Shown here piece by piece: positions 24,001-30,000 of a stretch of DNA of 64,000 nucleotides (its first letter is position 1; each line of letters begins with the position of its first letter). The stretch comes from Escherichia coli (lineage in GTDB: Bacteria > Pseudomonadota > Gammaproteobacteria > Enterobacterales > Enterobacteriaceae). The stretch lies in assembly GCF_003790525.1 (NCBI RefSeq), contig NZ_CP033635.1; one strand, given 5' to 3'. A program made the position numbers.

Positions 24001-27000
24001 GCATCACCCACAGGCTGGCTCCGCCGATAATGGCGTTTTGTGGTGCATCTTTCGCGTCAGCGTCGTAAGGCATCATGCCTACGCCGTAGTTGAATTTGGC
24101 GTACTCGCGAATGCTGGCAAGAGAACCAGAAGAGGCAGTCGTCATTGCGCAATCACCGTTATAGAACTTCTCGGTGGATTCATCCTTACGCCCGACGTAG
24201 CTGAAATCGCCTTTCTTGTTCATCTCTTCGAGCATGGCGATGTGTTTCACCTGCTCCGGCTTGTTGAACTCCAGCACCGCATCTGTGCCGTCAAAGCCGT
24301 TGTTTTTGCTGGCAAACGGCAGACCGTTCCAGGCGCTAAAGTTTTCCAGTTGGATCCAGCCCTGCCAGCCGCTGGAGTAGCCGCACTTCATACCGGAGGC
24401 TTTCAGTTTCGCGGCATAGTCCGCCAGATCCTGCCAGGTTTTCGGCGGCTGTTCCGGGTCTAATCCTGCTTTCTTGAAAGCATCTTTGTTGTAATAGAGA
24501 ACAGGAGTCGAGCTGTTGAACGGCTGGGAGAGTAAGTGTCCCGTTTTGCTGTCGGAGTAGTAGCCTGAAACCGTCGGCACAAACTGCGACTCATCAAAGT
24601 TAATCCCCGCCTCTTTAAACACGTCATACACCGGTTTAATGGCTTTCGACGCCATCATGGTGGCGGTGCCAACTTCATAAACCTGCAAAATAGCCGGAGC
24701 GTTACCGGTACGAAATGCTGCGATCCCCGCACTTAAACTCTCTTCGTAGTTGCCTTTATAAGTCGGTATAATTTTGTAATCCGGGTTTTCGGCGTTAAAA
24801 CGTTGGACCAGAGAATTCACCTCTTTACCCAGTTCCCCTTCCATAGAGTGCCAGAACGGAATGGTCGTCACTGCCTGTGCATTCCCCATTAACGTCAGTC
24901 CGAGCACCAGTGCTGAAGCTGTATAATGTAACGGTTTCATCGTTTATCTCTCTTGCTTGTTGTACCTGATGAGCGAATTCACACGTTTCATGCTCGTGGG
25001 ATTAAATATCATGCCCGAATTGCAGAAAAATAACTTTTTTATTACATGTGTTAGACAGTAAAGTGTTAGAAAGATGACAGAGCAGTGACGGCACAGGTGA
25101 GACGTGGTGGATTGAATTTGATCCTGCTGTTGACAGTGAAATCCGCAAGACATGTCCGGCAGTGATCGTGAGCAATGACGCAGCAAACAGGAACCTCGCT
25201 CGAGTAGTCGTCGTTCCTCTGACCAGTAACACAGAGCGAGTGTATCCAAGTGAGGCTGTTGTGACCGTAGGTGTCAGAGCAGCAAAGCGATTGTAGAGCA
25301 GATTATGGCGGCGGATAAGTCCTGTCTCAAAACACATATTGGCTCGTTGTCCAAAGCAGATATGTTGTCTGTTGAGGACGCAATCAAGATCCATCTTGGT
25401 TTACTGCGGTAACGCCATGTGAATCTGTCGGCTACCGCCATTAGTGACGGAATTTTCTGTGGGGCAGCGTACCAATGGCATTCGGTTAAGTTCTTGCTGG
25501 AGCATCAAAAGAGTTCCAGCGCGTTCTGGGCCGTACATATTTTCGTGGGTAACACCTCCCTGGCCTTACTCGCTGAGTCATACAACTGCGATCGATTCAG
25601 ATGCCATTTTGCAATCAGCCTCTCAGAAAGAGCGCAACAGAATGATTTTAAATGTTTTCCTGTTACCCGAATCAGTAAAGACAAGTACCTCACTACGAGA
25701 AACAAGCAGTTTTTGAAATTAAAATTTTGTTTATTTCTACTACTACCGATGAAAACGTTATTATCTTAATAATTAATGTCATTTCAGGATATCCATGTAA
25801 GGTTAAGTAATAATATATGAGCCTGTATTTTTATTTTACATCTTTCTCACTCTGTGAATGAAAATATTCAATAGAAAATTTGATTTGAATAATTTATATA
25901 ACTCTTCTATATTACATCAATGCCGATAGAAATCGTAAAAAGCTTCGTTTTCATAAAAATTTCTTTCAATAATATTTGTAGCTGGACCAGCCCCTTGAAA
26001 CGCCAGATAGTGGATGTATCTTAAAATAAGAGACAGGCTTGGATATATGTCTGACACTGGTTCTAATTTTGAGATGACTGGAACTTTGCCGGGGCTGTAG
26101 CTTCGTAAACGTAAAACTCCTCAGGAAAAAATTGGCATTATTCAGCAGACAATGGAGCCTGGCATGGCGGTGTCACATGTGGCGCGTTTGCGTTGTATTC
26201 AGCCCTGCCTGTTGTTTAAGTGGAAAAACAATCTCTGGAAGGAAGTCTCACTGCTGTTGCTTCAGGAGAGGGTGTCGTTCCTGCCTCAGAACTGCCTGCC
26301 GCTATAAAACAAATAAAAGAGTTACAGCTCTTGCTGGGTAAAAAACCATGGAAGTTTAGATCCTCAAAGAAGTGGTGGAGTATGCGCAATCGCGAAAATG
26401 GATAGCGCATGTGCCCTTGTTACCTTCGGACAAGGAATAGCCCCGGTAAGCCGTGTTCTGGGCGATACTCAGGCGGCAGTCCCTAAATGAAGGACTACCG
26501 TTAGTGAATGCAAAGCGCGTTTACCGTAAGCGTAAACTGACCGCCGTATGTAGCCATCAGACGAGAATTGGTAACTTAGACGCCCATCTGATATAGACGG
26601 ACATCTAAGTATGGAATTACAGGACTGGCGAAAAGAACCTCGTAAAAACTATTTGAACCGCCCCGGGTTTCCTGGAGAGTGTTTTATCTGTGAACTCAGG
26701 CTGCCAGATCATCGTTTCCGATGGAAGCATAATAAGCTTTTTCTGCTTCTGCCGGTGGGATATGGCCCAGCCTTTCCAGCAATCGTCGATTGTTATACCA
26801 GTCCACCCACGTGAGTGTGGCCAGCTCCACTTCTGTCCGGTTTTTCCAGCTCTTACGGTGTATTACCTCCGCTTTGTAAAGGCCATTGATGCTCTCCGCC
26901 ATCGCGTTGTCATACGAGTCACCAGTACTTCCTGTTGATGCCAGTAATCCGGCTTCCTTAAGCCGCTGTGTGTAGGCCAGCGATACATACTGAGAACCTT

Positions 27001-30000
27001 TATCACTGTGATGGACTGTGCCGGACGGTCGACGGGCCCATAACGCCTGCTCCAGAGCATCCAGCACGAATGTCGTTTCCATAGACGATGAGACCCGCCA
27101 CCCCACGATGTATCCGGCAAACACATCAATGATGAACGCCACATAGACGACCCCCTCCCATGTGCTGACGTAAGTAAAATCAGCCACCCACAACTGGTCA
27201 GGACGTTCTGCCACAAACTGACGGTTTACGCGGTCGCCTGCGGCAACGGCTTTCCGGCTGACGGTAGTGCGGACCTTTTTACCCCGGAGAACACCGGCAA
27301 GTCCCATAACCGCCATGAGGCGCGCCACTGTACATCTGGCTACCCTGATTCCTTCCCGTAACAACTGACGCCAGACTTTACGCACACCGTATACCTGATG
27401 ATTCCCATCGTATACGCGCAGTATCTCTTTCTTCAGCCAGTCATCGCGCTGCGCACGGGCACTGCGTTTATAAGGATGATGTCGCTGTTGCTGACAGTGG
27501 TAATACGTTGACGGGGCAATATGTAGTTCACTGCATACCGGTCCGACCCCGTACAGCTTACGCAGCTTATCCAGCAGTGGCATCACTTTTTCCAGAGGCG
27601 GTCGAACTCCGCCTTCGCAAAATAAGCGGAAGCCTGGCGAAGGATATCGTTACTGCGGCGCAGTTCACGATTTTCACGTTCCAGCTCTTTCAGACGCTGA
27701 CGTTCAGCGGTGGTGAGCCCGCCATCACCGCCTCCGGTATCCCGCTCATGCTGGCGTACCCAGACACGCAGAGTCTCCGGTGTACAGCCAATCTTTGGGG
27801 CAATGGAACAAATTGCCGCCCACTGTGAGTCATATTCGCCCTGACTTTCCAGAACCATACGAATCGCCCTCTGACGGACTTCGGGGGAAAAACGAGTATT
27901 TTTAGTCATTCTGTTTACCTCTTTCTCAGGGAGTTTAGTCTCCAGGATTCCCGGGGCGGTTCAACTTGTGATTTTTTCCCTTTTGCTGTCAGAGTTCGGT
28001 AACGAGAACACAATCGTTGTTGAGCTTTCCATGCAATATCTTTGGAATATTGTGTTACAGAGTCCGGTCGGTAATATATAAGCCATGCACCAACTTTTGC
28101 AGGTGTACGATAAGACCAGGCGGCTTCGTAAAGCAGACGTCTCAGTTCGCTGTTTCCAACTTTTGTTATTCCTCTGGGACGAATACTGTTTCCACTGGAA
28201 TATTCACCTGGCACCAGTCCCAGAAAAGCCATGAGCTGTTTGGGATTGGAAAATCGCGAAAAATCACCCAGTTCAGCAACCAGGGTTATTGCAATTAGCT
28301 GACCAACACCTTTTAGAGCCTGCAACTGGCAGACCAGATTGCACAGAGACCACTCAGGTAACAGGCGAGATATTTCCTGGTCGAGTTGAAGTATGCGATC
28401 TTCAATCTGCTCCAGACTTTGACAATAGTGTTGAAAAGCAATCTGCTGAGATGGCTGACTAAATGATTGATTAGCTAACCAGGTTCGATGTTTGCCGGTC
28501 CAGTGCTTCCCTGCATAACGTTTGTCTGTTCGCAATAGCATGCTCAGAATTCGCTGTCGGGCAACTCTGCTGTCTCGTTTAGCTGCTGCACGGGCTCTGA
28601 TTAGATCCCGCATAGCTTCATGAGTCAGGTCAGGGATCCAGACAGGGGTAAGTTCACCAGCCCGCAGTAACCTGGCAAGAGAAATTGCGTCCCGATGATC
28701 ATTTTTGATTCTGTCTGTCGGTGATTTTGGTATCCGGGAAGGGGCAATAACCTGGCATTTTATATTCATCGCTGTGAGTTGATGATATAGCCCAAAACCA
28801 CAGGGGCCAGCCTCATAGCAGGAAAGAATGTTTCCGTAAAGTCCCTGCAATTTTTGAAATAATCGACGTACAGCCTGGGCTTCGTTGTTAATCGTACCAT
28901 AATAACGAACTTCGCCAAGCCGTTCAGGTGCAGCAATAGCAACCGCCAACGTTTCTTTATGTACATCCAGCCCGATGTAAGCTGCAATATTTTCCGAATG
29001 CATAATGACCTCCTCTGGAATATCCCACCAATGCTATAGTGAGTATATAAAGGTCATACCATCTTTATGTTCTTTGGCAGCGATCACGGCGGCGAGCGTG
29101 GAGCACTGTTGTACGGGCTGATCGGCACCTGCCGTCTGAACGGTATCGATCCGGAAGCGTATCTGCGCCATATCCTGAGCGTACTGCCGGAATGGCCTTC
29201 CAACCGAGTTGATGAACTCCTGCCATGGAACGTAGTACTCACCAATAAATAAGCGTCAATACGGTGCTCCGTTGACGCTTACCGTTTACCGGATAATGAG
29301 CGAAAATATCCTGTTGTTACATGACAAACCATCACGACCGCAGCGGGAACATAAAGGCCGAATATCGGTAAGGAAAGCGACCAGCGTTGATGTTCTGATG
29401 GCTTTGAGTTCGGTTGCGATGATGGCGAAAAAGTCCGGGTTACGTTCGCTCTGGACTGTTGCGATCGTGAAGCTATCGACTGGGCATCCAATACGGGAGG
29501 TTACAATAAAGCGACAGTGCAGGATGTGATGTTAGGAGCGATAGAAAAACTCTTTGGCGATAAAGTACCGGAACAGTCCATCCGGTGGTTGACAGATAAC
29601 GGTTCAGCGTATAGAGCGCATGAAACACGGCAGTTCGCCAGAGAGTTGGATCTGGAGCCCTGCACAACGGCAATCAGCAGCTCTCAGAGTAATGGAATGG
29701 CAGAAAGGTTAGTGAAAACGATGAAGGAAGACTACATTGCGTTCATACCGAAACCGAATGTAATAACGGCATTGCATAACCTTGCATAGGCGTTCGAGAA
29801 TTACAATGAGAACCACCCGCATAGTGCGAGAATTCATCGTTCGTGTCCATCAATAGATGGACGCGATTGTTGCCAGACAGGACAACCACCACAAGACGGC
29901 ACAGAAGGAGCGCTTACGATGAATTTTACCGGACAATAAAAATTGTCCGGCTATTAATTATTTACATCAGCCCTAGAAATTGTGGGATAAATAAAGAGAT

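What the first reader, a model, noticed from the sequence alone, without database searches (positions are those of the whole stretch)
26070..29925. Nested insertion-sequence pile-up with a transposase reading frame running into a neighbouring IS end
An IS2-like element is split into a left part (26070-26653) and a right part (29272-29830) by an intact IS629, an IS110-family element and an IS66 TnpC fragment, then followed by an IS66 left-end remnant. The IS110-family transposase ORF draws its last 15 codons from the IS629 terminal repeat, so IS629 displaced the original 3' end. The stacking records repeated insertions into one target.
Basis: seen in the sequence. Interest (0 to 1): 0.35.

Follow-up and report, generated by a model that had tools for sequence, protein, structure and literature searches.

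The report
Nested insertion sequences, one recombined away
This stretch of an E. coli genomic island is an ordinary stack of jumping genes inserted into one another, and a related genome that still holds the intermediate state shows exactly how the stack was built and then partly deleted.

Summary
A degenerate IS2-like relic (about 26074-26525 and 29283-29827) is split by one IS66-family element, ISEc23 (26526-29282). ISEc23 keeps both ends and has an 8-bp target duplication, CGTTTACC.

Inside ISEc23 lie three things:
- its first 128 bp;
- an intact 1310-bp IS629-like element (26654-27963);
- a truncated IS110-family ISEc45 (27964-29062), followed by the last 220 bp of ISEc23.

So 26526-26653 belongs to ISEc23, not to the IS2-like relic.

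The fused reading frame is confirmed. It has 346 native codons, one codon across the junction, and 15 codons plus the stop from the IS629-like end.

A related assembly (L023) has the same locus undeleted, with two IS629-like copies. One sits in ISEc23 at nt 126-128 (duplication ATT) and one in ISEc45 (duplication ACT). The window's single copy has the left flank of the first and the right flank of the second. It is therefore a recombination product that lost about 2.5 kb.

ISEc45 sits where it does because it inserts at one conserved site in IS66-family tnpC. All parts are known elements. The exact fusion protein is already in GenBank. Interest is low.

The parts
26074..26525 (+). IS2-like relic, left part (degenerate orfA and start of orfB; no terminal repeat found)
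   Evidence: Window 26122-26424 is 70.3% identical to IS2 nt 137-441. HTH_Tnp_1 hit. The relic is continuous and uninterrupted in E. coli MDR_56, where RefSeq annotates a pseudogene at L004 4075-5118.
26518..26525 (.). Left copy of the 8-bp target-site duplication CGTTTACC made by ISEc23
   Evidence: Read directly. The uninterrupted site in L004 carries a single copy (the two alignments overlap at L004 4519-4527). The same junction is present in L023.
26526..26653 (+). ISEc23 (IS66 family) left end, nt 1-128, beginning GTAAGCG
   Evidence: 99.2% identical to ISEc23 in L007 over a 132-nt alignment that runs 4 nt into the IS629-like end, and 100% to L023.
26654..27963 (-). Intact IS629-like IS3-family element, 1310 bp: orfA 27583-27909, orfB 26696-27586, ALIL pseudoknot 27512-27628. 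Its flanks ATT and ACT do not match each other.
   Evidence: The flanks equal the left flank of copy A and the right flank of copy B in L023.
27964..29062 (-). Truncated ISEc45 (IS110 family): its nt 1-1099 of 1444. It lacks the last 30 codons, the 251-nt 3' non-coding region and the right end.
   Evidence: 99.8% identical to intact ISEc45. PF01548, PF02371 and NF033542 all hit.
27915..29003 (-). Fused ORF of 362 aa: 346 native ISEc45 codons, 1 codon across the junction, and 15 codons plus stop from the IS629-like end
   Evidence: It matches NF033542 profile positions 1-317 of 343, against 1-338 for the intact protein. The exact protein is in GenBank (AYW32260.1 and others) and was seen on 27 contigs.
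29063..29282 (+). ISEc23 right part, nt 2312-2531: the CT core at 29063-29064, the TnpC C-terminal fragment at 29067-29252, and the right terminal repeat ending CGCTTAC
   Evidence: 100% identical to ISEc23. PF13817 and NF033517 hit.
29283..29290 (.). Right copy of the 8-bp target-site duplication CGTTTACC
29283..29827 (+). IS2-like relic, right part (degenerate orfB), cut short at its 3' end
   Evidence: 68.5% identical to IS2 nt 688-1238. rve hit at 28.6 bits, below Pfam's cut-off. In L004 the relic continues past this point (HPHSALGY...), so the window copy is truncated.
29828..29917 (-). IS66-family left-end remnant, inverted: terminal repeat GTAAGCGCTCC... plus the first 8 codons of tnpA. 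It is not ISEc23.
   Evidence: 93.5% identical to L002 3001-3093, 98.9% to L004 7845-7934, and 100% to LH50-c.

Best explanation
The locus is a four-level nest of known insertion sequences in an E. coli genomic island. It was built by ordinary transposition and then shortened by recombination between two copies of the same element.

Steps, with their status:
1. An old IS2-like element decayed in place (shown: the uninterrupted relic exists in strain MDR_56).
2. ISEc23, an IS66-family element, inserted into the relic's orfB and duplicated 8 bp, CGTTTACC (shown).
3. ISEc45, an IS110-family element with IS1111-type layout, inserted at its specific site in ISEc23 tnpC. That site encodes GKKNFMFFGSD, and a CT dinucleotide is found at both junctions (shown). 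The site choice is presumably directed by the seekRNA/bridge RNA encoded in its 3' non-coding region (inferred from the family).
4. Two IS629-like copies inserted in the same orientation. Copy B went into the ISEc45 transposase gene after codon 346 (3-bp duplication ACT). Copy A went into the ISEc23 left end at nt 126-128 (3-bp duplication ATT). Both are shown in the related assembly L023.
5. Recombination between A and B deleted one copy and about 2.5 kb between them: ISEc23 tnpA, tnpB and most of tnpC, plus the ISEc45 3' end, its non-coding region and its right end. This left one intact IS629-like element whose two flanks do not match (inferred; it fits the flanks base for base).

Steps 2-4 are ordered only by nesting. 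Whether ISEc45 and the IS629-like copies entered before or after ISEc23 reached this site is open.

Consequences:
- The IS629-like copy looks mobile.
- ISEc23 here is a shell made only of its ends.
- ISEc45 is dead. It has no right end, no guide-RNA region and no upstream target flank.
- The ISEc45 ORF simply reads on into the IS629-like end until the first stop.
For: - Element identities and boundaries come from alignment to reference copies at 99-100% identity.
- The ISEc23 duplication CGTTTACC was read at both ends. The unoccupied site has a single copy.
- L023 (GCA_013421655.1) is the same chromosomal locus, 99.98-100% identical in its flanks. It carries every junction in canonical form: ISEc23 CGTTTACC; copy A ...CTATT|IS|ATTCGAA; copy B ...GGCTACT|IS|ACTTGTG; ISEc45 flanked by CT on both sides; and an IS256-like element with a 9-bp duplication.
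- The window's junctions are ...CTATT|IS629-like|ACTTGTG, which is exactly left-of-A plus right-of-B.
- Sister assemblies show other outcomes of the same pair of copies. L018 is a recombinant that keeps copy A's 563-bp internal deletion. L024 has copy A joined to a copy B that lacks 177 nt.
- ISEc45 site specificity rests on empty sites in ISEc23, IS682 and ISEc43 compared with occupied sites. 884 E. coli records hold the ISEc45-end::IS66 junction, against 699 that hold at least 80% of ISEc45.
- The fusion ORF loses the conserved C-terminal profile positions 318-338.
- The seekRNA paper reports that the downstream non-coding region and target sequence on both flanks are needed for excision and transposition of IS1111-type elements (PMC11187229).
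Against: - L023's copy A carries a 563-bp internal deletion, whereas the window's copy is intact. So either the crossover fell in the 437 bp on the ISEc23-left-end side, or copy A was still intact when recombination happened. The sequence cannot tell which.
- No phylogeny was built to show that L023 is ancestral rather than a sister state.
- Assemblies L014, L016 and L025 have the IS629-like end abutting ISEc23 nt 51. A x B recombination alone does not explain this; it needs a further event.
- The same fusion junction with different DNA beyond the ISEc23 right end (L020, L022) shows that part of the history happened, or spread, elsewhere.
Confidence: 0.88

Rival explanations
1. One-copy model. 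Only the IS629-like copy in ISEc45 ever existed in this lineage. A transposase- or IEE-promoted deletion anchored at its end removed everything up to ISEc23 nt 128.
For: IS629-adjacent deletions are documented in EHEC (abstract of PMC9943667). Assemblies L014, L016 and L025 have the same IS629-like end abutting ISEc23 nt 51. This looks like a nested, end-anchored deletion series.
Against: L023 has a second IS629-like copy inserted at exactly ISEc23 nt 126-128, with its own 3-bp duplication. That is the very breakpoint seen in the window. A random end-anchored deletion would be unlikely to land on that base.
Confidence: 0.07
2. The IS2-like element extends to 26653 and was separately invaded by IS629, an IS110-family element and an IS66 fragment. 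The IS629 insertion alone replaced the IS110 3' end.
For: The gross order of homologies along the sequence is as described.
Against: - Bases 26526-26653 are ISEc23 nt 1-128, at 99-100% identity.
- The 8-bp duplication brackets the whole of 26526-29282.
- The flanks of the IS629-like copy lack a duplication (ATT versus ACT). The downstream half of ISEc45 is absent from the other side, so a simple insertion cannot explain the junction.
Confidence: 0.02
3. Assembly artefact. The source genome has the two-copy L023-like structure, and the assembler collapsed the two IS629-like repeats into one.
For: A collapse of two direct repeats gives exactly the same sequence as true recombination.
Against: Independent assemblies carry single-copy recombinant forms that a collapse would not produce: L018 with the 563-bp internal deletion, and L025 with a 51-bp ISEc23 end. 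The window itself is a 64-kb contiguous sequence that spans several other repeated insertion sequences.
Confidence: 0.03

Closest known systems
IS-in-IS nests and deletion by recombination between IS copies in E. coli/Shigella genomic islands (IS629 polymorphism in EHEC O157)
   Same: Insertions are stacked with canonical target duplications. There is a deletion whose only trace is an insertion sequence with non-matching flanks. [quoted passage not shown]
   Different: Nothing is different in principle. Here the intermediate with both parental copies survives in a public assembly, so the event can be reconstructed base for base.
ISEc21 (IS110 family), which targets a conserved codon block of IS3-family transposase genes (PMC11187229)
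   Same: ISEc45 also inserts at one conserved coding site of another IS family's transposase gene, without a conventional duplication. That is why it sits inside ISEc23 here.
   Different: - The target is IS66-family tnpC, not an IS3-family gene.
- ISEc45 has the IS1111-type layout: a 59-nt 5' end, a 251-nt non-coding region after the gene and subterminal inverted repeats. ISEc21 has an upstream non-coding region.
- The guide RNA of ISEc45 was not identified here.
ISEc11 and other IS1111-type seekRNA elements
   Same: DEDD and Transposase_20 domains, a downstream non-coding region and subterminal inverted repeats (TATGACCTTT / AAAGGTCATA) in intact ISEc45.
   Different: The window copy has lost the non-coding region and one end. 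It cannot be a working member. Only its protein-coding remnant is present.

Membership tests
IS3 family, IS629/IS1203 group | About 1.3 kb with imperfect terminal inverted repeats beginning TG...CA | tested here: met
   1310 bp. TGAACCGCCCCGGGTTTCCTGGAGA against TGAACCGCCCCGGGAATCCTGGAGA, 23 of 25 matching.
IS3 family, IS629/IS1203 group | orfA (HTH) and orfB (DDE/rve) overlapping, with a programmed -1 frameshift signal | tested here: met
   108-aa HTH_Tnp_1 ORF; 296-aa ORF with HTH_21 and rve; NF033516 at 308 bits; ALIL pseudoknot RF01497 at 116 bits.
IS3 family, IS629/IS1203 group | 3-4 bp target-site duplication | tested here: not met
   The window flanks are ATT and ACT. This is explained by recombination: both parental copies in L023 have matching 3-bp duplications.
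IS3 family, IS629/IS1203 group | Identity to the IS629 reference at isoform level | tested here: inconclusive
   About 95-96% identical to copies RefSeq labels IS629-family, and 94.8% to an IS1203-labelled copy. The 99.9%-identical copies are labelled only 'IS3 family'. ISfinder was not available.
IS110 family (ISEc45; IS1111-type layout) | DEDD (RuvC-like) N-terminal domain and Transposase_20 C-terminal domain | tested here: met
   PF01548 and PF02371; NF033542 at 254 bits.
IS110 family (ISEc45; IS1111-type layout) | Complete element with both ends and a non-coding region that encodes the guide RNA | tested here: not met
   The window holds nt 1-1099 of 1444. The 251-nt non-coding region, the right end and the last 30 codons are absent.
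IS110 family (ISEc45; IS1111-type layout) | Site-specific insertion without a conventional duplication, with a short core at both junctions | tested here: met
   CT flanks the intact copies in L003 and L023. The window keeps the one surviving junction, CAT|CT|TTATG.
IS110 family (ISEc45; IS1111-type layout) | A guide RNA complementary to target and donor | tested here: inconclusive
   No Rfam hit. The non-coding region folds with z = -2.7. Only short k-mer matches were found, including a 10-nt copy of the right-end junction.
IS66 family (ISEc23) | Terminal repeats GTAAGCG...CGCTTAC and an 8-bp target-site duplication | tested here: met
   26526 GTAAGCGTAAAC... and ...GACGCTTAC 29282, with CGTTTACC on both sides.
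IS66 family (ISEc23) | tnpA, tnpB and tnpC genes | tested here: not met
   Only the last 61 codons of tnpC remain (PF13817). All three genes are present in L023.
IS3 family, IS2 group (the relic) | Recognisable orfA/orfB homology to IS2, plus terminal repeats | tested here: inconclusive
   68-70% DNA identity over about 850 nt. HTH_Tnp_1 passes. rve scores 28.6 bits, below the 32.6 cut-off. No terminal repeats were found, and the relic has stops and frameshifts.

The most novel reading that the evidence does not exclude
ISEc45 is an RNA-guided IS1111-type element whose natural, dedicated target is a conserved codon block of IS66-family tnpC. In other words, it is an insertion sequence that specifically seeks out and inactivates another IS family across hundreds of E. 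coli genomes. The window then shows one such 'kill', later fossilised by IS629-like recombination. No paper in the searched library describes this targeting for ISEc45.
Probability: 0.75. Interest if true: 0.3.

Novelty: already known. Interest (0 to 1): 0.1.

Why it matters
It matters little beyond annotation. The corrected map stops 128 bp of ISEc23 from being assigned to the wrong element, and it marks the 362-aa 'IS110 family transposase' as a truncated fusion pseudogene. It also gives a clean, fully documented example of deletion by recombination between two IS copies, because the intermediate survives in another assembly.

The side observation may be useful to people mining natural targets of bridge-RNA/seekRNA recombinases: ISEc45 is aimed at IS66-family tnpC. 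An analogous case, ISEc21 targeting IS3-family genes, is already published.

Tried and rejected
- Exact-junction searches. For the IS629-like/ISEc45 junction, no record in the 5,426 complete E. coli genomes or the plasmid collection holds it unbroken. For the ISEc23-end/IS629-like junction, searched only in the complete genomes, the 30 best of 553 records with at least 80% coverage were all two separate pieces. The nearest case, plasmid L001, has an IS629-like insertion 20 bp away with its own duplication, so it is an independent event. The exact-protein look-up is what found the related loci.\n- A 4-nt microhomology (TGAA) at the ISEc23/IS629-like junction was considered as a sign of end-joining. 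It was rejected: ISEc23 reads CGAA there, so it was a BLAST over-extension.\n- Rfam has no family matching the ISEc45 non-coding region.\n- A k-mer search for guide segments gave only short, ambiguous matches, because the target is itself quasi-palindromic (AAAGAA...TTCTTT). No guide assignment is claimed.\n- No terminal repeats of the IS2-like relic were found.\n- A sigma-70 scan found no promoter-like site in 27800-30100, against an expectation of 3.5. So there is no support for expression of the fusion ORF.\n- No tRNA gene lies in the window to mark an island integration site.
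Full report
**What is at the coordinates**

The region lies in an IS-rich E. coli genomic island. Its left flank (23000-26526) is 99.7% identical to E. coli MDR_56. Its right flank (29828-34069) is 100% identical to E. coli LH50-c.

ORF listing and direct reading give the raw features. Alignment to copies of each element from other genomes gives the boundaries:

| Window coordinates | Feature | Identity to reference copy |
|---|---|---|
| 26526-26653 | ISEc23 (IS66 family) nt 1-128 | 99.2% (L007), 100% (L023) |
| 26654-27963 | IS629-like element, 1310 bp, minus strand | 99.9% to many E. coli copies |
| 27964-29062 | ISEc45 nt 1-1099 of 1444, minus strand | 99.8% |
| 29063-29282 | ISEc23 nt 2312-2531 | 100% |

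The whole block 26526-29282 is bracketed by a direct 8-bp repeat, CGTTTACC (26518-26525 and 29283-29290). In MDR_56 the same IS2-like pseudogene is uninterrupted and carries a single copy of that octamer.

The host of the block is an IS2-like relic, about 26074-26525 plus 29283-29827.
- It is 68-70% identical to IS2 in DNA.
- HTH_Tnp_1 passes Pfam's cut-off; rve scores below it.
- It is riddled with stops, and no terminal repeats were found.
- Its 3' end is cut at 29827/8 and joined to a 90-bp inverted left end of a different IS66-family element (29828-29917). In MDR_56 the relic continues past that point.

The family names are right, and the pile-up is real. The fused ORF is as described:
- The ISEc45 part of ORF 27915-29003 is 1040 nt, which is 346 codons plus 2 nt.
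- Codon 347 is completed by the first base of the IS629-like end.
- 15 further codons and the stop lie in that end.
- The native protein is 377 aa, so 30 native residues are replaced.
- Against NCBIfam NF033542, the intact protein covers profile positions 1-338 of 343. The fusion covers only 1-317.

Two coordinates are wrong. The 'IS2-like left part' includes 128 bp of ISEc23. The right part starts at 29283, not 29272.

The name 'IS629' is also approximate. The element is about 95% identical to copies that RefSeq labels IS629- or IS1203-family. The 99.9%-identical copies are labelled only 'IS3 family'. It looks intact:
- terminal repeats match at 23 of 25 positions;
- orfA and orfB are both present;
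- the ALIL frameshift pseudoknot scores 116 bits.

**How the structure arose**

The IS629-like element has non-matching flanks...CTATT on one side and ACTTGTG... on the other. It is therefore not a simple insertion. The exact 362-aa fusion protein was found in the public protein collection on 27 contigs, and fetching those contigs gave the answer.

Assembly GCA_013421655.1 (L023) has the same chromosomal locus, 99.98-100% identical in its flanks, but undeleted. It contains:
- ISEc23, complete, with the duplication CGTTTACC;
- IS629-like copy A in ISEc23 at nt 126-128, with duplication ATT (this copy has a 563-bp internal deletion);
- ISEc45, complete, in tnpC, flanked by CT on both sides;
- an IS256-like element in the ISEc45 non-coding region, with the 9-bp duplication TGGATTTTA;
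- IS629-like copy B in the ISEc45 transposase gene, with duplication ACT.

Copies A and B are in the same orientation. The window's single copy has A's left flank and B's right flank, which is what recombination between them leaves. About 2.5 kb of ISEc23 and ISEc45 sequence and one IS629-like copy are lost.

Sister assemblies show other outcomes of the same pair:
- L018 is a recombinant that retains the 563-bp internal deletion.
- L024 has copy A abutting a copy B that has lost 177 nt.
- L014, L016 and L025 have an intact copy abutting ISEc23 nt 51. This needs a further event and is the best evidence for an end-anchored deletion process acting as well.

The same fusion junction plus the ISEc23 3' end also occurs with different DNA beyond the ISEc23 right repeat (L020, L022). 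Part of the history therefore predates this site or spread from it. The contigs end inside the IS629-like element, so this could not be resolved.

**Why an IS110-family element sits inside IS66**

Empty and occupied sites were compared:

| Source | State | Junction sequence |
|---|---|---|
| ISEc23, IS682 and another tnpC (L007-L009) | empty | GGAAAGAAAAA-CT-TTATGTTCTTTGG |
| ISEc43 (L006) | empty | AAAAA-TT-ACGTGTTC |
| L003, L023 and the window | occupied | CT at both junctions (the window keeps only one) |
| L001 (ISEc43 background) | occupied | TT on the left, CT on the right |

This shows at least two independent insertions at the homologous position.

In the complete E. coli genomes, 884 records carry the ISEc45-end::IS66 junction. 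Only 699 carry at least 80% of ISEc45.

Intact ISEc45 has a 59-nt 5' end, a 377-aa transposase, a 251-nt 3' non-coding region and subterminal inverted repeats. This is the IS1111-type layout. For that type, the seekRNA paper reports that the downstream non-coding region encodes the guide RNA. It also reports that target sequence on both flanks is needed for excision. The same paper describes ISEc21 targeting IS3-family transposase genes, a direct precedent (PMC11187229).

By inference, the window's ISEc45 is immobile. It has lost its guide-RNA region, its right end, its upstream target flank and a conserved C-terminal segment. I did not identify the guide itself. Rfam has no matching family, and the k-mer matches are ambiguous.

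**Comparison with what is known, and verdict**

Every component is a named, known element. Nested insertion sequences and deletion between IS copies are textbook events. IS629-associated deletions are well documented in EHEC (PMC9943667).

The only mildly new point is the apparent dedication of ISEc45 to IS66-family tnpC. No paper in the searched library mentions it.

The finding is real but ordinary. Its architecture needed correction, and its history can now be stated step by step.

Noticed in passing
L002 5390-6833; L003 8898-10341; L006-L009 (empty sites); window 29060-29069: ISEc45 occupies one fixed position in IS66-family tnpC, in at least two different IS66 backgrounds. A CT core is found at the junctions (TT on the left in an ISEc43 background). 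884 E. coli records carry this junction.
   Followed up: partly
L003 8898-9148 (ISEc45 3' non-coding region, minus strand): The 251-nt non-coding region contains a 10-nt stretch, ATAAGAGTTT, identical to the element's own right-end/core/target-flank junction. It folds somewhat better than shuffled sequence (z = -2.7). Rfam has no match. The guide segments were not assigned.
   Followed up: partly
L001 4001-5310; L010 1347-2560; L011 1347-2560; L012 1348-2560; L023: IS629-like elements lie in or next to the 3' part of ISEc45, or in adjacent IS66 sequence, at five or more different positions in different genomes. This may be a local hot region. The search that found them was biased towards this arrangement.
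   Followed up: partly
L002 7714-9979; L003 4667-6932; L017 (window-equivalent 27169-27177): A group II intron (ltrA) is inserted at the same position of IS629-like elements in several genomes. This is consistent with site-specific retrohoming into this insertion sequence.
   Followed up: no
window 27091-27653 (equivalent positions in L018, L023 copy A and L024): The same 563-bp internal deletion of the IS629-like element recurs in related assemblies. The window's copy is intact.
   Followed up: partly
L020 and L022, just beyond the ISEc23 right terminal repeat (equivalent to window 29282/29283): An identical ISEc23-3'end/ISEc45-remnant/IS629-like junction is found next to unrelated DNA: genes including a TraW-like one in L020, and another IS66 fragment in L022. 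The module therefore exists in at least three contexts. The contigs end inside the IS629-like element.
   Followed up: partly
window 12217-12466; 15232-16507; 33589-33667; 35802-38542; 41723-42605: More IS debris lies in the window: an IS66-like fragment, a nearly full IS256-like element (1276 of 1315 bp), an IS256-like end, another IS66-family element, and the 3' two-thirds of a genuine IS2 (96.6% identical).
   Followed up: no
window 34067-34069: Strain LH50-c carries an extra IS629-like insertion here, with a 3-bp overlap of the flanks. The window lacks it. LH50-c also has a genuine IS2 abutting the same IS66 left-end remnant, 4 bp from the window's junction at 29828.
   Followed up: partly
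window 25162-25296: A short ORF of 44 aa corresponds to a gene that RefSeq annotates as a PemK/MazF-family toxin. It lies between the ugpB-like gene and the IS2-like relic.
   Followed up: no
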